64,000 nt of DNA, taken from a phage. Position numbers and translations under genes: made by a program. The notes below the pieces were generated by a model that saw only the letters and a program-made list of their open reading frames with translations, did no database searches and had not been told where the DNA came from. This document shows, one piece after another, positions 57,472 to 64,000 of this stretch; the stretch's first letter is position 1, and each line of letters begins with the position of its first letter. Location of the stretch: assembly GCA_024682255.1 (NCBI GenBank), contig GCA_024682255.1_4716.1, one strand, 5' to 3'.

Positions 57472-57567
57472 ATCCACTCCGATGCGGTAAATGTCTACTA
57501 GCTCTCATAATCTATTGAAGAAACTACCAGCTTACGCCAACTTAGATTAATCAGGAGTAACCATCCC

Positions 57568-58041
57568 ATGCCAGTTTCATCCAAACCAAGAAAAAAATCC
57601 GTAGGAAACCCTAAAGCTCAGGAAACAACAGCAATTCGTTGGGACGAGTTACGTGAACCTATCGAAAACTGCGAATTGTTATTAGGTACCCTGGGTGCGG
57701 CTATTTACCAAGCGACGCAGCCCTGTCGTTTACGATTAACCCAAAACAAACGTGATGAGTTCGTTGCGTTATCAACAAGCACGAATAAAGATCTGACCGA
57801 ACTTCAAACCGAATTGACGACGATCAAGAACTCCATTACGCCGATGTACGGTAAAGAAGTTGATGAACAAAGTATTCTGTTACAGTACAACTACGGGATG
57901 TCGTTAATGAACATCCTGGAACGCGCATCCGATATTCTGCGTCCTGACGTTGCACGCCTGAGCCAACTGCGTGTTGAAGGGATGGAGAACCAGATCCGAT
58001 TCGCTAACAGCGTTAAATCTCAAGGAGCCACCGAAGCATGA
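57568..58041 (+). CDS. hypothetical protein (157 aa)
   Basis: ATG at 57568; divergent from the gene at 56599-57471; the stop overlaps the next start (ATGA). Confidence 0.7.
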   Translation: MPVSSKPRKKSVGNPKAQETTAIRWDELREPIENCELLLGTLGAAIYQATQPCRLRLTQNKRDEFVALSTSTNKDLTELQTELTTIKNSITPMYGKEVDEQSILLQYNYGMSLMNILERASDILRPDVARLSQLRVEGMENQIRFANSVKSQGATEA

Positions 58042-59723
58042 GCGAACAAGAAAAAGAAGTCGTGACGAATCAGGAAGCCGTTGAGCGTTCAGAGTCGTCT
58101 GTTGAAACAACGATTCCGGCAAGTTCCGAGCCTGTTGGTTCCGTACAGCAGGAAAGTAAAGACGAAGTCAACACTACTAAAGAAGATGTAGTGGCTCCAG
58201 AAGCAACCCGTGAAGAAGAACCGTCACATCCACCGCTAATCGATTTCTCGAAGGCGACGATACGTTTCCAATGCGAAGACATTCGTCCTAAGAGTCCGAA
58301 GAAAACAAAACGTCAGCCGTTGGTGTTACCGTTATATTCTCCGCGTGTGCAGACAACGTATTACCGGGAATACATCAACGAAGCAATGGATACCGTGCAA
58401 GCCATTGTCGCTCAACGCGGTAAACCGACAGACGAACAGTTTGATAAATTCAGTAAAGCGGTGGTGCAATCGGTTGCTGATGGACAATATCATCCGCGTG
58501 GTCCAGCTCACGATCGCGCGTTGGAACGTAAAGGCAGTCAGTGGACTAACGTACCCGTAGACTCATCGGGTGTTGGTCGCGTTATTCCTGGCATTCCGCA
58601 ACCGAACCATATTCCTGATGATGTCGAAGCGCCGCTGACAGGAACCGATGCGATCTATTTTGCTATCCGTAATACGAAATCAGGCGCACCTGCGGTAATG
58701 CCGTTATGGCATAGCGGTATTAAGCTGCAGTTCAATCCGCCGTCAAATGAACGTGTTGCAATTATGCACGAACGTATTGCACGCGATAAAATCCTGGGTG
58801 GTCGTGATAGCACCGGTTTCCTGTTTTCGGCAACCTCGATTATCACCATGAAGCACGCAATCGAATTAGCGTTAGAATGCTGTTACATGGCCAACGTACC
58901 GAACCTGGATATCCAGCGTTTGAAAGACATTATTCCGGTTACCGATGTTCCGGCGTTGTTGTTGAACGTGCTGGTAACCATGTATCCGTACGGGTATCCT
59001 TACGTACAGACCTGCTATCAGAATCCAGAAACCTGCGACTATCGTGTCGAAGATACCGTAAGCTTTGCGAAGCTCTATCAAGTTGACAACAGCGCAATTA
59101 CCAAACGTATGCGACAGATCATGACCGAAGGTCCGGTCATGACAGATGAACTTTTGCGTGAGTATGCGAACGAGCTGGGTGAAACGAACTCCCGTACGCT
59201 GGATCTGTCCGACAACGGTTCTGTTATCATTGAACTCGAAGTACCGAAGATCTCACGACAAATCGCCATGGGTGAACGTTGGTTAAGCGATACGCTGGAA
59301 GATCTGCGTGATATTCTATCGCGTCCGTCGATGACCGAAGAAGAGCGTGATCGTGTTATTCGTGAACGTCAGTTCTATAGCTGGATGCGTCAGTATGATG
59401 CGTGGATCAAATCGATGCATGTGTCGGTAAACGGTACCATGCGTCGTGTAAGCGATGCAGATACGGCAACGGTATTAGCACAGCTGTCTCGTGACAGCGA
59501 CCTTCGTGAACGCTATATCGATGGGCTGATGCAATTCATCGGTGATTCGACGATTGCGCTCGCAGCGATGCCTGCCTGGAAATGTCCGAAATGTAATGCC
59601 GATATTGCTGACAATCTGCGTGACCAGAAATACTACGATCTGATTGCTTTGGATGTACCCCAGCTTTTTTTTACCCTAAACTCCGTCCAATCTCTTCAGG
59701 AGGGGATGGACGCGGTATTCTAA
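58038..59723 (+). CDS. hypothetical protein (561 aa) with C-terminal CxxC element
   Basis: ATG at 58038 with AAGGAG upstream; WKCPKCN near the C-terminus. Confidence 0.8.
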   Translation: MSEQEKEVVTNQEAVERSESSVETTIPASSEPVGSVQQESKDEVNTTKEDVVAPEATREEEPSHPPLIDFSKATIRFQCEDIRPKSPKKTKRQPLVLPLYSPRVQTTYYREYINEAMDTVQAIVAQRGKPTDEQFDKFSKAVVQSVADGQYHPRGPAHDRALERKGSQWTNVPVDSSGVGRVIPGIPQPNHIPDDVEAPLTGTDAIYFAIRNTKSGAPAVMPLWHSGIKLQFNPPSNERVAIMHERIARDKILGGRDSTGFLFSATSIITMKHAIELALECCYMANVPNLDIQRLKDIIPVTDVPALLLNVLVTMYPYGYPYVQTCYQNPETCDYRVEDTVSFAKLYQVDNSAITKRMRQIMTEGPVMTDELLREYANELGETNSRTLDLSDNGSVIIELEVPKISRQIAMGERWLSDTLEDLRDILSRPSMTEEERDRVIRERQFYSWMRQYDAWIKSMHVSVNGTMRRVSDADTATVLAQLSRDSDLRERYIDGLMQFIGDSTIALAAMPAWKCPKCNADIADNLRDQKYYDLIALDVPQLFFTLNSVQSLQEGMDAVF

Positions 59724-59815
59724 TCGATCCGCGATACGGGTTACATGACGGACAACTTGTTCGTAATGATGAAAAAATCTGGGAATTGCTGTTAGCGCGT
59801 AAAGGCGATGGTGGC

Positions 59816-60145
59816 ATGAAACTGAACATCGAAATGGGTATAGCGTACGATACCATGTTTGGTTTGTACGACCGCGTTAACGAATGGACACCGTTGAAAT
59901 GGGTGGCTCAGCATCCCGCTGAAGATCCCTGGGACAGATTAGGGATTAAACCCTTAATCGAGGATTATGTTCGATTCGGTATTAAAGAGTTCATGACGCT
60001 GGATGCGTTTTTAAAAGCACCGTATCCTTACGCGCAAACGGTACTCAAAATCGCACAAGACGAACTGCGGAAACGTAGTGCGGTACTGGACGACGATGAG
60101 GACAAGTTACGACGAGAAGAAGAACGTTTACGAAACGGAAAATAA
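59816..60145 (+). CDS. hypothetical small protein (about 109 aa)
   Basis: The track's start at 59786 is TTG; the first in-frame ATG is at 59816. Start uncertain. The stop lies 1 nt before the next start. Confidence 0.5.
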   Translation: MKLNIEMGIAYDTMFGLYDRVNEWTPLKWVAQHPAEDPWDRLGIKPLIEDYVRFGIKEFMTLDAFLKAPYPYAQTVLKIAQDELRKRSAVLDDDEDKLRREEERLRNGK

Positions 60146-60146
60146 A

Positions 60147-60656
60147 ATGGCGAGATTTACCAGTTTGATTGGGTTGGATATTTGGGAAACACCGGCTGAC
60201 GTTCGGGTTATTCCTGTTAACACCGTCGGTGTGATGGGACGTGGTCTTGCTAAGCAGGCAGCCGATCGTGTGCCCGGTCTTCTTGAAGCGTACCGTAAGC
60301 AATGTCAAGATGGGTTTAAGGTGGGAGAAGTCGTGTCATATCAACACGGTGATAACGATCAACTCACTTACGTGCTGTTTCCATCAAAATCGGATTGGCG
60401 TGAAAGAACACGACGCGAGTATATCGTTAACGGTTTACTGGCGTTAAAAGCGTGGTTATTGGAGCTTCAGTTCGAAAGAGACGGCTTCTCATATCGGCGT
60501 CCGGCTGAACCGCTGATCGTTGCAATTCCTCCGGTTGGTTCTGGCTGCGGTAATATCGGCTACGGACAATCCGAAACAATCCAGCCTCAATGGGTACGCG
60601 CACAAATCAAACAGTATCTTGCCACCGTGCCAAACGTTCATTTCTACTTGTTCTAA
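60147..60656 (+). CDS. macro-domain-like (ADP-ribose binding or processing) protein
   Basis: ATG at 60147. DVRVIPVNTVGVMGRGLAKQAADR resembles the macro-domain VNAAN...GGGV...A motif, and LIVAIPPVGSGCGNIGYG resembles the hAhPxIGTGxxG motif. Confidence 0.5.
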   Translation: MARFTSLIGLDIWETPADVRVIPVNTVGVMGRGLAKQAADRVPGLLEAYRKQCQDGFKVGEVVSYQHGDNDQLTYVLFPSKSDWRERTRREYIVNGLLALKAWLLELQFERDGFSYRRPAEPLIVAIPPVGSGCGNIGYGQSETIQPQWVRAQIKQYLATVPNVHFYLF

Positions 60657-60672
60657 TGTAAAGGTAACATAA

Positions 60673-60704
60673 CCCTCTCCCAACCCGTAAGGGAAGGGAG
60701 AGGG
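60673..60704. terminator. Bidirectional hairpin of the dispersed family (core type) between convergent genes
   Basis: Lies between the plus-strand stop at 60656 and the minus-strand stop at 60722. Confidence 0.6.
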
Positions 60705-60721
60705 CTTATGCTGTTATGCTG

Positions 60722-61696: not shown

Positions 61697-64000
61697 TTAA
61701 GCGTCCGGCGTAAAATCAAAAGGAATGTCCGTACGAATGATATCATAACGTTTTCCGAGGAAATAGAACTCTTCGGGAACCTGGCCTGGAATGATGCTAT
61801 CACCGATGAACTGCGGATACGCCCAGATGTACTGGGTGAGTCCTTCGAACATATCCAGGTTATTTGCGTGGTTGCCCATGATACGTTTCCAGAGTTCGCG
61901 TTTATACGGCGTTTTAACATCGAACCCATAAAGCGGTGCGAGGTCTTCACCAGGAACAAATCCCAGGTAATAGTGGATCTGACTAACTGGGAAACCAAGG
62001 GTATCTCGCGGAATGGTGATCGCTTGCTCAGCCTTGGTGACATGCGTCTCAATAATCCAGTCATAGCACTCTGAATAGAACCGATCGAATTTCTCTGGAT
62101 TATACCACGCTTTGGGAAGATTGAGTTTCTCCGTGAACGCGTTCGACATGATCGTCGGCAAGAACGGAAGAACGCCGGTTTTGATCTGCGTGTATTTCGA
62201 TTTTACCCGGTTAACGAGATTCCAGCAACTGTATCCTAACTGTTCGTTACAAAACTCAACATAGAGATCGTAGTCACCACCGGATAACGGGTTGTTAATA
62301 TCACCGATGTCTGCGGCGTATTTGTTGGGATATCGGTTATTGAAAGCCAGTTTGGTTTGGTAGTCGTAGATACACGGTTTGTTGTTCGCTGTATTGATCC
62401 ACCACCAGGGTTCACCTACTTGTACACAAATGTCCTGGACATGAGGGTAAATGATATCAGCAAACGCGGTTAACACATCCCCTAACCACGTCATCGCCTG
62501 TTGGTTACATGGAGACAACAACCAAGACGGTGGCGTATATCCGGTTGCTGCGATGTTTCCTTCCCAATCCTGCTGCGCCCACTCGAACGGGCATGCGGTA
62601 CTCATCAATTCGTAACTTAAACTGATGGTGACGGAGAAATGGTGTTTTGCAGCATATGCGGCGAAAGCTTCATGCCACGCGATACAGGCCGGATTTAATA
62701 CATCCGTGGTGTTCACCAGTAACTTACCCGCACTTGGCGTCCAGACAGTATCGTAGAAATGCGACATCCCAACATAATGCACTAATTCATCTTGATACCC
62801 CGCATAAACCAGGTTCTCAAATACGCGCTCCGGCGTGATGTTGTAATGGTCATCATAAGCGGTTATCGCACGAAGTTCGTGTGGCGTACAGTGGTGGCGA
62901 CTAACCGTCATTTCCTGATACACCCCATCGATAGGAAGAATCTCGATGGTTAAACCGAGGTCGATTGGCGTTTCCAGATAGGTCGTTTCAGTCGCATCTT
63001 CCTTATAATGTCGAGAACTCATGCTGAACATCAACGACGTTACCGATTCGAGTTCGATGGGTTCGTCAGCATAGAACCCCGCCATTGCGTCATTGAAATC
63101 GATCGTCACGATTGCGCTTCTACCGTCTTCAGAGACATCGGTCGCATATCGGGTTAATGAGATATACTGACGGCTATCGTCTTTGTGTACGACGGTTAAA
63201 ACCGGCGGGTGTTCGGTATCTGCAAAGTTACGCTGATCGCCAGTAAACGTGACCTTCGCTTTAAAGATCAAACCGAGTAACGATGTCATGGGATCATACG
63301 CAATACATCCGTGATCCAGCGTATCCGTTGTCCGCCATTCTATCCCGACCAACCCGTTAGCGGTATGACATCGCATATACGCATTAAGTGTCATGTCCTC
63401 ACTGACAACCGCGAAGTTCTCTGTTGACTGACCGTTGATAATCCAATACATCGGTTGCCAGAGGTTACGCGTACCTTTTGCGTAGCGGTAGGTTGGTGCG
63501 CCTTTGGGGTTGCCATTATTAAGATGGAATACGGCAGTACCTTGATAATGGTCGTTCGTATTAATCGGAACACTGTAAGCATCGCCGAGGTCCGTACGTT
63601 CCACCTTCGTGACTGTCGCGTTTTCAAATAACCCACGTAGCGCGGGTAAACCGATATCTTCCGGCGCGTTTTCTCGACGAATCGCATCCGCGATGCGGTG
63701 GGCTAAGGCGGGGTAAATGACCTCACCCTGTTGTAGGTTTGCAAGACCTACAAAGCGATCGGGAGCGATACCAGCAATCAATAACTCGACATCACCCTTC
63801 GTTCTATCGTCGTTAAGATATTTCAGTCCGGTAAGGTCAAGATGCTGAATAAGCGACAACAGGTTGTATTTACGGTTTTCAACAGTTAGTACAAGATCGC
63901 CCGCCCAAACCAAACTTCCCTCATCCGCTGTTACTTTAACGGATTGTCGGCCCGTGGTAGACGTTGTTGTCGTTTTATTTAATTGTCCTTGTAGGAAGTC
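61697..64000 (-). CDS. hypothetical large protein, N-terminus outside the window (more than 768 aa)
   Basis: The track's start at 63913 is a TTG, and the same frame stays open with no stop to the window edge, so the gene continues upstream. Confidence 0.75.
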   Translation of the reverse strand, partial: DFLQGQLNKTTTTSTTGRQSVKVTADEGSLVWAGDLVLTVENRKYNLLSLIQHLDLTGLKYLNDDRTKGDVELLIAGIAPDRFVGLANLQQGEVIYPALAHRIADAIRRENAPEDIGLPALRGLFENATVTKVERTDLGDAYSVPINTNDHYQGTAVFHLNNGNPKGAPTYRYAKGTRNLWQPMYWIINGQSTENFAVVSEDMTLNAYMRCHTANGLVGIEWRTTDTLDHGCIAYDPMTSLLGLIFKAKVTFTGDQRNFADTEHPPVLTVVHKDDSRQYISLTRYATDVSEDGRSAIVTIDFNDAMAGFYADEPIELESVTSLMFSMSSRHYKEDATETTYLETPIDLGLTIEILPIDGVYQEMTVSRHHCTPHELRAITAYDDHYNITPERVFENLVYAGYQDELVHYVGMSHFYDTVWTPSAGKLLVNTTDVLNPACIAWHEAFAAYAAKHHFSVTISLSYELMSTACPFEWAQQDWEGNIAATGYTPPSWLLSPCNQQAMTWLGDVLTAFADIIYPHVQDICVQVGEPWWWINTANNKPCIYDYQTKLAFNNRYPNKYAADIGDINNPLSGGDYDLYVEFCNEQLGYSCWNLVNRVKSKYTQIKTGVLPFLPTIMSNAFTEKLNLPKAWYNPEKFDRFYSECYDWIIETHVTKAEQAITIPRDTLGFPVSQIHYYLGFVPGEDLAPLYGFDVKTPYKRELWKRIMGNHANNLDMFEGLTQYIWAYPQFIGDSIIPGQVPEEFYFLGKRYDIIRTDIPFDFTPDA

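What the first reader, a model, noticed from the sequence alone, without database searches (positions are those of the whole stretch)
59816..60656. Macro-domain-like protein with a small upstream partner gene: candidate ADP-ribose-processing or counter-defence module
The 169-aa protein has the two glycine-rich signature segments of macro domains. Phage macro-domain proteins could reverse ADP-ribosylation by host defences or degrade ADP-ribose-derived signals. The gene follows, 1 nt after its stop, a small unknown gene, and the pair is flanked by a divergent promoter region and a bidirectional terminator.
Basis: partly seen in the sequence, partly recalled or inferred. Interest (0 to 1): 0.55.

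Follow-up and report, generated by a model that had tools for sequence, protein, structure and literature searches.

The report
Phage anti-DarT macrodomain gene (AdfM)
The 169-aa protein is a real macrodomain, but it is a near-identical copy of the already published chimallivirus counter-defence enzyme AdfM, which strips DarT2-added ADP-ribose from phage DNA; the "small partner gene" is not its partner and most likely is the tail of a frameshift extension of the gene upstream.

Summary
The window comes from a Goslar-like nucleus-forming jumbo phage (Chimalliviridae). ORF 60147-60656 (169 aa) is a genuine macrodomain. It passes the Pfam Macro cut-off, and its best sequence and fold matches are DarG antitoxin macrodomains, with both catalytic residues kept (N25, K81). 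It is 97% identical to Goslar gp83 and 32% identical over its full length to phiKZ gp104. Both are named AdfM (anti-DarT factor macro) in Morgan et al., Cell Rep 2026. That paper shows that AdfM is imported into the phage nucleus and removes DarT2 ADP-ribose from DNA. The counter-defence idea is therefore right but already known.

The two-gene module is not supported. Relatives of the small ORF always follow core gene cg18 (phiKZ gp077 family), with or without a macro gene nearby. The gene upstream is co-directional, so there is no divergent promoter at the pair. The downstream hairpin is real but has no T-tract.

Noticed in passing: the small ORF lies in the -1 frame of cg18. That frame is open from an invariant TTT-TTY (Phe-Phe) slippery site in all 91 chimallivirus loci examined. 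The 92-nt "intergenic" stretch is coding and has no conserved start codon. This points to an apparently unreported, family-wide programmed -1 frameshift.

The parts
60147..60656 (+). adfM ortholog: 169-aa single-macrodomain protein (DarG2-like DNA ADP-ribosyl glycohydrolase), stop included
   Evidence: It is 97% identical to Goslar gp83. The N-terminus MA(R/E/N)F is shared with phiKZ gp104, PhiPA3 gp108, Psa21_123 and L008. In L008 an in-frame TAG lies 3 codons before the ATG. ATG 60147 is therefore the start, and the 186-aa RefSeq start (equivalent to ATG 60096) is over-extended.
60216..60251 (+). Glycine-rich loop 1, VNTVGVMGRGLA (residues 24-35); catalytic Asn25 codon at 60219-60221
   Evidence: N25 is invariant in alignments A3 and A4. 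It aligns with Taq DarG N22 and phiKZ AdfM N23. The N23A mutation reduces phiKZ AdfM activity.
60387..60389 (+). Codon of Lys81 in the FPSK motif, equivalent to the catalytic Lys80 of Taq DarG and K78 of phiKZ AdfM
   Evidence: The column is invariant in A3 and A4. The figure legend of PMC13309987 names N22/K80 and N23/K78 as the active-site residues.
60528..60560 (+). Glycine-rich loop 2, PPVGSGCGNIG (residues 128-138), followed by a lineage-specific insertion (residues ~136-146, low pLDDT)
60668..60710 (.). Strong hairpin between the convergent genes (macro on +, gp084-like on -); a possible bidirectional terminator or RNA-stability element; no T-tract
   Evidence: Annotated as a putative terminator in Goslar. 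The first arm is also present after the macro gene in L008, at the contig end.
59816..60145 (+). It is the distal two-thirds of a longer conserved coding frame, not an AdfM partner.
59666..59672 (+). Candidate -1 slippery heptamer T_TTT_TTT (codons L543-F544-F545 of cg18) within the T8 run 59665-59672
   Evidence: F544 and F545 are invariant in 13 of 13 cg18 proteins. The TTT-TTY pair is present in all 91 loci examined. The 24 nt around it are identical in the 47%-identity relative L008.
59672..60145 (+). The -1-frame extension ORF (157 codons plus stop, YPKLRP...RNGK*). It overlaps the last 17 codons of cg18, runs through the 92-nt 'intergenic' stretch, and ends 1 nt before the adfM ATG. The predicted fusion product is 702 aa.
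58038..59723 (+). Chimallivirus core gene cg18 (equivalent to Goslar gp081, phiKZ gp077, PhiPA3 gp074); 561 aa; C-terminal CxxC...FFTL region; function unknown; detected in Goslar virions
57568..58041 (+). First gene of the co-directional block (equivalent to Goslar gp080 / phiKZ gp078 position); overlaps the cg18 start by 4 nt
57478..57567 (.). The true divergent intergenic region, between the gp079-like gene (-) and the gp080-like gene (+)

Best explanation
ORF 60147-60656 encodes the AdfM (anti-DarT factor macro) ortholog of a Goslar-like chimallivirus. It is an orphan, single-domain, DarG2-type macrodomain.

Proposed mechanism:
1. Host DarTG2 systems release DarT2, which ADP-ribosylates thymidine in TNTC motifs of single-stranded phage DNA.
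2. A little DarT2 reaches the DNA despite the phage nucleus.
3. AdfM is made in the cytoplasm and imported through the PicA pathway.
4. AdfM hydrolyses the thymidine-ADP-ribose bond with its Asn25/Lys81 active site, so that replication and especially genome packaging can proceed.

Shown here: the macro fold, the closest similarity to DarG macrodomains, conservation of both catalytic residues, full-length orthology to phiKZ gp104 and Goslar gp83, purifying selection, and the chimallivirus context.

Taken from the literature for phiKZ and PhiPA3 only: the enzyme activity, rescue from DarT2 toxicity, and protection from DarTG2. Nuclear import was shown there for the phiKZ, PhiPA3 and Asesino proteins.

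Inferred for this protein: the same activity and localisation.

The gene is an accessory cargo appended to the 3' end of the conserved gp080-cg18 transcription unit in the Goslar lineage. The preceding small ORF belongs to cg18, not to a macro module.
For: - Identity of the phage: 95.6% nucleotide identity to Escherichia phage Goslar across the locus. The neighbours are chimallivirus core genes.
- Macro domain: Pfam above the gathering score.
- Best family hits are DarG: NCBIfam 8.6e-23 and PADLOC 4e-22, both covering only the macro part of the model.
- Best PDB sequence hits: Taq DarG 5m31 (5e-15), Mtb DarG 5m3i, and Thermosipho DarTG 7omu.
- Fold: AF2 model with pLDDT 86.4. The top Foldseek hits are 5m3e and 5m31 (E 5e-14, TM 0.79/0.88), then 5m3i, 7omu and TARG1; Poa1p and viral macros rank lower.
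- Catalytic residues: N25 and K81 are invariant and align with Taq DarG N22/K80 and phiKZ N23/K78.
- Orthology: BLASTP against phiKZ gp104 gives 1e-24 at 32% identity end to end. It is the only macro gene in the window. The best non-Goslar phage hits are PhiPA3 gp108 and the phiKZ-group gp104 proteins.
- Literature: Goslar gp83 (YP_009820768.1) is listed as an AdfM homolog in Fig. 1B of PMC13309987. The function of AdfM is demonstrated in that paper.
- Selection: pN/pS 0.14 against an 88%-identical relative.
Against: - Neither this protein nor Goslar gp83 has been assayed.
- Identity to the tested phiKZ and PhiPA3 enzymes is only about 32%.
- The Goslar lineage carries two insertions (residues ~108-122 and ~136-146; pLDDT 62 and below 50) next to the second phosphate-binding loop. 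These could alter substrate range or import.
- Nuclear import of AdfM is species-specific and depends on divergent surface regions, so localisation cannot be read from the sequence.
- The score against the full DarG model is far below its cut-off (81 against 250), because the DarT-binding domain is absent.
Confidence: 0.8

Rival explanations
1. It is a general ADP-ribose metabolite enzyme of the Poa1p type: an ADP-ribose-1''-phosphate phosphatase or O-acetyl-ADP-ribose deacetylase. It would clean up NAD-derived by-products (for example of tRNA repair) rather than act on DNA.
For: - The RefSeq note assigns cd02901 Macro_Poa1p_like.
- PHROG 335 is labelled 'phosphatase'.
- Some database names read 'O-acetyl-ADP-ribose deacetylase' or 'Appr-1-p processing'.
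- Poa1p structures are found by Foldseek at E ~6e-7.
Against: - DarG macrodomains score several orders of magnitude better than Poa1p in sequence and fold.
- The DarG/TARG1-type catalytic Lys is kept.
- The phiKZ ortholog acts on DarT2-modified DNA and its loss gives a DarTG2-specific phenotype.
- The labels are automatic annotations, not tests.
Confidence: 0.06
2. It reverses ADP-ribosylation of targets other than DarT2-modified thymidine, or in addition to it. Candidates are proteins or RNA modified by other host ADP-ribosyltransferase defences, or by the phage itself. The Goslar-specific loop insertions might enable this.
For: - TARG1, the next-closest fold, acts on protein glutamate-linked ADP-ribose as well as on DNA (established knowledge of TARG1).
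- There are lineage-specific insertions next to the substrate loop.
- Macrodomains are often promiscuous.
Against: - PMC13309987 states that the phage proteins align best with bacterial DarG2 macrodomains, which act on DNA ADP-ribosylation.
- No ADP-ribosyltransferase gene was seen near the locus.
- Nothing here points to a specific alternative target.
Confidence: 0.1
3. One reading: the small ORF and the macro gene form a dedicated two-gene counter-defence module with its own promoter and terminator.
For: - The stop-to-start spacing is 1 nt here and 2 nt in a relative whose macro protein is only 47% identical. The adjacency is therefore conserved within the Goslar lineage, and translational coupling is possible.
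Against: - Small-ORF homologs follow cg18 in Noxifer, which has no macro gene downstream, and in Psa21, where the macro gene is 40 kb away. They also follow cg18 in phiKZ, PhiPA3 and 9 further genera.
- AdfM of phiKZ works alone in vitro and in E. coli.
- The small ORF gives no hit in PADLOC, Pfam or NCBIfam.
- The upstream region is coding and co-directional.
Confidence: 0.04

Closest known systems
AdfM (anti-DarT factor macro): phiKZ gp104, PhiPA3 gp108, Asesino gp217, Goslar gp83 (Morgan et al., Cell Rep 2026, PMC13309987)
   Same: - Encoded by a chimallivirus.
- A single macrodomain of about 160-170 aa.
- Shared MA.F N-terminus.
- Catalytic Asn and Lys conserved.
- DarG2-like fold.
- 97% identical to Goslar gp83 and 32% identical to phiKZ gp104 over the full length.
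   Different: - Not the tested proteins. Only the phiKZ and PhiPA3 proteins have functional data, and Asesino has localisation only.
- Two Goslar-lineage insertions (residues ~108-122 and ~136-146).
- Different genomic position: it follows the cg18 block here, whereas it follows the gp099-102 virion block in phiKZ and PhiPA3.
DarG2 antitoxin of DarTG2 toxin-antitoxin systems (Thermus aquaticus, M. tuberculosis; PDB 5M31, 5M3E, 5M3I, 7OMU)
   Same: The macrodomain fold and active site (N22/K80 equivalents), and the best sequence and structure matches.
   Different: - No C-terminal DarT-binding domain. It matches only positions 7-146 of the 338-position model and scores 81 bits against a cut-off of 250.
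- No adjacent darT gene.
- Encoded by a phage as an orphan antitoxin.
TARG1 (C6orf130), human terminal ADP-ribose glycohydrolase
   Same: The same macrodomain subclass with a catalytic lysine. It is the next-best fold match (E ~1e-9, TM ~0.70/0.83). TARG1 also reverses DarT-type DNA ADP-ribosylation (PMC8501950, title and abstract).
   Different: 16-18% identity; a eukaryotic protein that also acts on protein substrates.
AdfN (orphan DarG1-like NADAR protein of T4-like phages), and AdfA/AdfB (small DarT-binding inhibitors)
   Same: The same strategy: a phage carries an orphan antitoxin-like factor against DarTG.
   Different: - AdfN has a NADAR fold and targets DarT1 (guanosine) modifications.
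- AdfA and AdfB are non-enzymatic binders.
- None is homologous to this protein.
Programmed -1 frameshift extensions of phage genes (lambda gpG/gpGT; P2 E/E+E', recalled from memory). This comparison applies to the small ORF, not to the macro gene.
   Same: - A slippery run shortly before the stop of the upstream gene. Here T_TTT_TTT lies 17 codons before the stop.
- A conserved -1 ORF of about 157 codons without its own conserved start.
- A minor long isoform would be expected.
   Different: - The upstream gene is a 561-aa chimallivirus core protein of unknown function, not a small tail-assembly chaperone next to a tape-measure gene.
- No stimulatory RNA structure was found.
- There is no experimental evidence yet.

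Membership tests
AdfM (chimallivirus anti-DarT factor macro) | Encoded in a chimallivirus (nucleus-forming jumbo phage) genome | tested here: met
   95.6% nucleotide identity to Goslar. It is flanked by core gene cg18 and vRNAP-subunit genes.
AdfM (chimallivirus anti-DarT factor macro) | Full-length homology to the characterised phiKZ gp104 / PhiPA3 gp108 | tested here: met
   BLASTP against phiKZ gp104: E 1e-24, 32% identity, residues 1-162 of 169. tblastn against PhiPA3 gp108: 5e-15 at 96% coverage. It is the only macro gene in the window. It is 97% identical to Goslar gp83, which the AdfM paper lists as a homolog.
AdfM (chimallivirus anti-DarT factor macro) | DarG2-like macrodomain fold | tested here: met
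   AF2 pLDDT 86.4. The top Foldseek hits are 5m3e, 5m31, 5m3i and 7omu.
AdfM (chimallivirus anti-DarT factor macro) | Catalytic Asn (phiKZ N23) and Lys (phiKZ K78) present | tested here: met
   N25 and K81 occupy invariant columns in A3 and A4.
AdfM (chimallivirus anti-DarT factor macro) | Removes DarT2-added ADP-ribose from ssDNA and neutralises DarT2 / protects the phage from DarTG2 | not testable with these tools
   Shown only for phiKZ, and for PhiPA3 by deletion phenotype, in PMC13309987.
AdfM (chimallivirus anti-DarT factor macro) | PicA-dependent import into the phage nucleus | not testable with these tools
   Nuclear localisation was shown for the phiKZ, PhiPA3 and Asesino proteins; dependence on PicA was shown for phiKZ gp104, and recognition is species-specific.
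DarG (type II antitoxin, NCBIfam NF048014) | Two-domain protein (macrodomain plus C-terminal DarT-binding domain) reaching the curated score | tested here: not met
   81.1 bits against a cut-off of 250. Only model positions 7-146 of 338 are matched, and the protein ends at residue 169.
DarG (type II antitoxin, NCBIfam NF048014) | Encoded next to a darT toxin gene | tested here: not met
   The neighbours are cg18 and its extension upstream, and two unannotated minus-strand ORFs downstream. PADLOC gave no DarT hit.
Macro domain (Pfam PF01661) | Score at or above the gathering threshold, covering the domain | tested here: met
   25.9 bits against 22. Residues 23-141 match profile positions 3-113 of 118.
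Poa1p-like ADP-ribose-1''-phosphate phosphatase | Closest similarity to Poa1p rather than to other macro subclasses | tested here: not met
   Poa1p structures rank 24th or lower (E ~6e-7, rmsd ~5 A), against DarG at 5e-14 and rmsd 2.1 A. The Poa1p catalytic residues were not examined.
Two-gene macro 'module' (small ORF plus macro) | Co-occurrence of the two genes across genomes | tested here: not met
   The adjacency occurs only in the Goslar lineage. The small-ORF family follows cg18 in 13 of 13 genera sampled, whether or not a macro gene is present.
Programmed -1 ribosomal frameshift (for the small ORF) | Slippery X_XXY_YYZ site in the 0 frame, plus a conserved -1 ORF lacking its own conserved start | tested here: met
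   T_TTT_TTT at 59666-59672. The -1 frame is open in 13 of 13 loci and 78 of 78 loci. The first canonical start lies at a median of codon 29, and the first ATG at codon 55. The window's ATG 59816 is ACC in L008.
Programmed -1 ribosomal frameshift (for the small ORF) | Demonstrated trans-frame protein product | not testable with these tools
   There is only an indirect hint. Goslar virion MS lists gp081 with 24 peptides and gp082 with 1 peptide, at about 0.14 of its molar signal.

The most novel reading that the evidence does not exclude
The 'small partner gene' is not a gene in its own right. It is the distal part of a ~157-codon C-terminal extension of chimallivirus core gene cg18 (phiKZ gp077 family; a virion-associated protein in Goslar). 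The extension is reached by a programmed -1 frameshift at the invariant Phe-Phe TTT-TTY site, or alternatively by a 1-nt transcriptional slippage on the T-run. The arrangement is conserved across the whole family and has apparently not been reported or annotated. In the Goslar lineage the accessory adfM gene has been inserted 1-2 nt after the stop of this extension, so AdfM translation may be partly coupled to it.
Probability: 0.7. Interest if true: 0.6.

Novelty: already known. Interest (0 to 1): 0.25.

Why it matters
For the finding itself there is little new. It confirms that Goslar-like coliphages carry the published anti-DarTG2 factor AdfM, and it corrects the start codon used in RefSeq. 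This is useful for predicting the host range of jumbo phages on DarTG2-positive E. coli or Salmonella.

The by-product could matter more. A core gene shared by all nucleus-forming phages appears to make two isoforms by a conserved frameshift. That would add a new essential-gene product to the chimallivirus proteome. It would also explain dozens of mis-annotated 'small hypothetical genes' and apparent intergenic gaps, for example the 218-nt gap before phiKZ gp076.4.

Tried and rejected
- **Two-gene module.** Rejected on synteny.
- **Promoter and terminator at the pair.** The consensus scan found no sigma-70-like site upstream and no intrinsic terminator. Only the hairpin stands.
- **Function of the small ORF and cg18.** Pfam, NCBIfam and PADLOC gave nothing for either; PHROGs gave only families of unknown function. 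PDB sequence searches gave no hit. A protein search with the 160-aa extension returned only 3 close relatives. The AF2 model from that shallow alignment had pLDDT 45 and was not used for fold search.
- **Pairwise comparisons.** BLASTP of the small ORF against PhiPA3 gp107 and Psa21_114, the genes upstream of AdfM in those phages, showed no relationship. cg18 against PhiPA3 gp106 showed none either.
- **Stimulatory RNA structure.** No consistent hairpin was found downstream of the slippery site across 13 genomes.
- **Locus search.** The search for related loci with the 13-sequence cg18 alignment failed because no stretch was conserved enough. A 6-sequence alignment worked.
- **Literature on a chimallivirus frameshift.** Three searches found nothing. 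The main text of the core-genome paper and the phiKZ Tn-seq preprint do not mention gp077 or gp104.
- **Faint hits.** The DUF7242 hit on the macro protein (E 0.002, below cut-off) and the YgiT zinc-finger hit on cg18 (below cut-off) were not pursued.
Full report
**1. What the window is**

The region 59700-60720 is 95.6% identical to Escherichia phage vB_EcoM_Goslar and matches no other phage record at the nucleotide level. Goslar is a nucleus-forming jumbo phage of the Chimalliviridae. The Goslar annotation shows the equivalents gp080 to gp083 on the + strand, then a hairpin and minus-strand genes. The rest of the window corresponds to Goslar gp035-gp086, which includes the major head protein, helicase, DNA polymerase and vRNAP subunits.

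**2. Checking the observation**

The coordinates are right. The 169-aa ORF starts at ATG 60147 and stops at 60654-60656. Both glycine-rich segments are present and sit in conserved columns.

The flanks are only half right:
- The upstream neighbour (58038-59723) is co-directional.
- The nearest divergent intergenic region is 57478-57567.
- No sigma-70-like site or canonical intrinsic terminator was found near the pair.
- A very stable hairpin does lie at 60668-60710, folding on both strands.

**3. The macro protein**

Sequence evidence:
- Pfam Macro passes its gathering score, 25.9 bits against 22.
- PHROG 335 matches at 1e-18.
- The best curated matches are all DarG: NCBIfam antitoxin_DarG at 8.6e-23 and PADLOC DarG at 4e-22. 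Both cover only the N-terminal macro part of the models.
- The best solved-structure sequences are the DarG macrodomains of Thermus aquaticus (5m31, 5e-15) and M. tuberculosis (5m3i), and Thermosipho DarTG (7omu).

Structural evidence. An AlphaFold2 model from a 13-sequence alignment has pLDDT 86.4 and the expected alternating beta/alpha order. Foldseek against the PDB ranks 5m3e and 5m31 first (E 5e-14, TM 0.79/0.88, rmsd 2.1 A). Next come 5m3i, 7omu and TARG1. Poa1p and viral nsP3 macrodomains come well behind.

Active site and orthology. In alignments with DarG and the phage homologs, Asn25 and Lys81 are invariant. They correspond to Taq DarG N22/K80. phiKZ gp104 finds only this ORF in the window.

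**4. It is already known**

A literature search returned Morgan et al., Cell Rep 2026 (PMC13309987). That paper names the chimallivirus macrodomain AdfM and finds it in about half of chimalliviruses. It reports the following:
- GFP-tagged AdfM from phiKZ, PhiPA3 and Asesino localises to the phage nucleus.
- phiKZ gp104 removes DarT2 ADP-ribose from a TNTC oligonucleotide, and the N23A mutation reduces this activity.
- phiKZ gp104 rescues E. coli from DarT2.
- phiKZ and PhiPA3 deletion mutants lose 3-6 logs of titre on DarTG2 hosts.
- In phiKZ the block falls mainly on genome packaging.

Its Fig. 1B alignment explicitly includes Goslar gp83, YP_009820768.1. The window protein is 97% identical to that protein. 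It is 32% identical to phiKZ gp104 over the whole length, with E 1e-24.

The earlier PNAS paper showed PicA-dependent, species-specific import of gp104. The recognition region lies in the divergent middle and C-terminal parts of the protein. This is where the Goslar lineage has its two insertions, at residues ~108-122 and ~136-146, both modelled with low pLDDT.

The best explanation is therefore an AdfM ortholog. It is not a full DarG: it lacks the DarT-binding domain and has no adjacent darT gene.

**5. Start codon**

All chimallivirus AdfMs begin MA(E/R/N)F. In the 47%-identity relative L008, a TAG lies three codons before the ATG. Large protein clusters were called at 169 aa. The RefSeq Goslar CDS is 186 aa and starts 51 nt earlier, inside the preceding ORF. 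It is most likely over-extended.

**6. The 'partner' gene**

The small ORF has no hit in Pfam, NCBIfam or PADLOC. Its only detectable relatives among the annotated phage records are Noxifer gp072 (tblastn 8e-7) and Psa21_83 (pairwise 4e-7). Each of these lies directly after the homolog of the 561-aa gene: Noxifer gp073 and Psa21_84.

That 561-aa gene corresponds to phiKZ gp077, PhiPA3 gp074 and core gene cg18. The pattern of macro genes does not track the small ORF:
- Noxifer has no macro gene downstream of it.
- In Psa21 the macro gene is 40 kb away.
- In phiKZ and PhiPA3 the macro gene follows the gp099-102 virion block.
- In SPN3US it sits somewhere else again.

Only in the Goslar lineage, down to 47% AdfM identity, is the macro gene appended 1-2 nt after the small ORF. 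The two genes are therefore neighbours by lineage-specific insertion, not a conserved module.

**7. Noticed while checking the small ORF: a candidate family-wide -1 frameshift**

The 'intergenic' stretch is coding:
- The 92 nt between the cg18 stop and ATG 59816 evolve like coding sequence in the small-ORF frame. Against an 88% relative, 8 of 13 substitution steps are synonymous, pN/pS is 0.17, and the other two frames contain stops.
- The stretch aligns collinearly at protein level with L008, where the window's ATG is a Thr codon.
- No canonical start codon is conserved.

The frame relationship is constant:
- The frame is -1 relative to cg18. It is open back to a T8 run at 59665-59672, read in frame 0 as CTT TTT TTT, which gives the heptamer T_TTT_TTT.
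- The same holds in 13 of 13 chimalliviruses from different genera. In the +1 frame, only 3 of 13 run past the stop.
- The two Phe residues are among only nine invariant columns of cg18.
- The slip-plus-overlap segment is the most conserved part of the locus in every pairwise comparison.

The scale test agrees. In 78 of 78 further IMG/VR loci (24-100% identity to phiKZ gp077), the -1 frame starting at the FF codons stays open for 404-512 nt beyond the 0-frame stop. The +1 frame never reaches 300 nt. The first Phe codon is always TTT, and 58 of 78 heptamers are canonical T_TTT_TTY. One of the two search patterns contained FF, so the presence of FF is partly selected for. Codon choice and frame openness are not.

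Seventy distinct -1 peptides share a consensus that begins right at the slip site (FFYp..Pe...Dp.gHV....FG...). The first canonical start lies at a median of codon 29 and the first ATG at codon 55. In phiKZ the 218-nt 'gap' before gp076.4 is exactly such start-less conserved coding sequence.

Published Goslar virion proteomics list gp081 with 24 peptides, at about 15-35 copies per virion, similar to the vRNAP subunits. They list gp082 with one peptide at about 0.14 of gp081's molar signal. gp083 was not found in the held text of the table, which was cut when stored. This fits a minor trans-frame isoform but does not prove it.

Caveats:
- I found no consistent stimulatory RNA structure.
- I found no paper mentioning such a frameshift.
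- Transcriptional slippage (a +1 U on the T-run) would give the same product.
- Independent initiation at ATG 59816 in this lineage cannot be excluded. A weak AAGG lies 10 nt upstream.

**8. Verdict**

- The macro and counter-defence interpretation is correct but already published.
- The module, promoter and partner claims are not supported.
- The macro finding itself has low interest.
- The cg18 frameshift candidate is the item worth following up.

Noticed in passing
window 59666-60145 (slippery site 59666-59672; -1 ORF 59672-60145), with cg18 at 58038-59723; also L005-L008 and L011-L097: Candidate programmed -1 frameshift that extends chimallivirus core gene cg18 (phiKZ gp077 family) by about 157 codons. 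An invariant TTT-TTY Phe-Phe site is present, and the -1 frame is open in all 91 loci examined. The -1 peptide is conserved from the slip site onward and has no conserved start codon. The 92-nt 'intergenic' stretch is coding (pN/pS 0.17). No report of this was found in the literature searched.
   Followed up: yes
window 60096-60146 (equivalent to Goslar NC_048170.1 92868-92918): The RefSeq CDS of Goslar gp083 (186 aa) starts at an upstream ATG that overlaps the preceding ORF by 50 nt. N-terminal conservation (MA.F) and an in-frame stop in relative L008 show that the 169-aa start at 60147 is the real one.
   Followed up: yes
L006 5537-5754 (phiKZ, between gp077 and gp076.4); likewise Special G, CR5 and Eowyn (L013, L014, L018): Apparent intergenic gaps of 116-218 nt downstream of cg18 homologs are open in the -1 frame and homologous to the N-terminal half of Psa21_83 and Noxifer gp072. 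The annotated small genes (for example phiKZ gp076.4) are truncated calls that start at internal Met or Val codons.
   Followed up: yes
window 58038-59723; Goslar virion MS (bioRxiv 10.64898/2026.04.21.720040, Table S4): The cg18 ortholog gp081 is detected in purified Goslar virions at about 15-35 copies, like the neighbouring virion-RNAP subunit gp078 and gp079. It is absent from the cryo-EM model. It has an acidic, probably disordered N-terminus and a C-terminal CxxC...FFTL region. It could be an internal or ejected protein.
   Followed up: partly
window 60668-60710 and L008 6540-6557: A GC-rich hairpin (CCCTCTCCC..GGGAGAGGG with an inner CCC/GGG stem) lies between the convergent genes. It has no U-tract on either strand. 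Its first arm recurs after the macro gene in a relative whose macro protein is only 47% identical, which suggests a conserved RNA element or a terminator for the phage RNA polymerases.
   Followed up: partly
window 61697-63913 (- strand): This 738-aa ORF carries DUF7941, NCTSP_N and a non-contractile-tail-sheath TIM-barrel domain (Pfam 1e-84). It is the equivalent of Goslar gp086, one of the DUF7941 proteins proposed in the Goslar structure preprint to act in host recognition. The ORF is 132 aa shorter than the annotated Goslar protein, and the start was not checked.
   Followed up: no
P0001, P0016 (protein clusters): Near-identical copies of the macro protein and the small ORF occur in assemblies labelled Salmonella enterica and Escherichia coli, one on a 243-kb contig, and in hundreds of sequencing runs. 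Goslar-like phages therefore seem common in enterobacterial samples.
   Followed up: no
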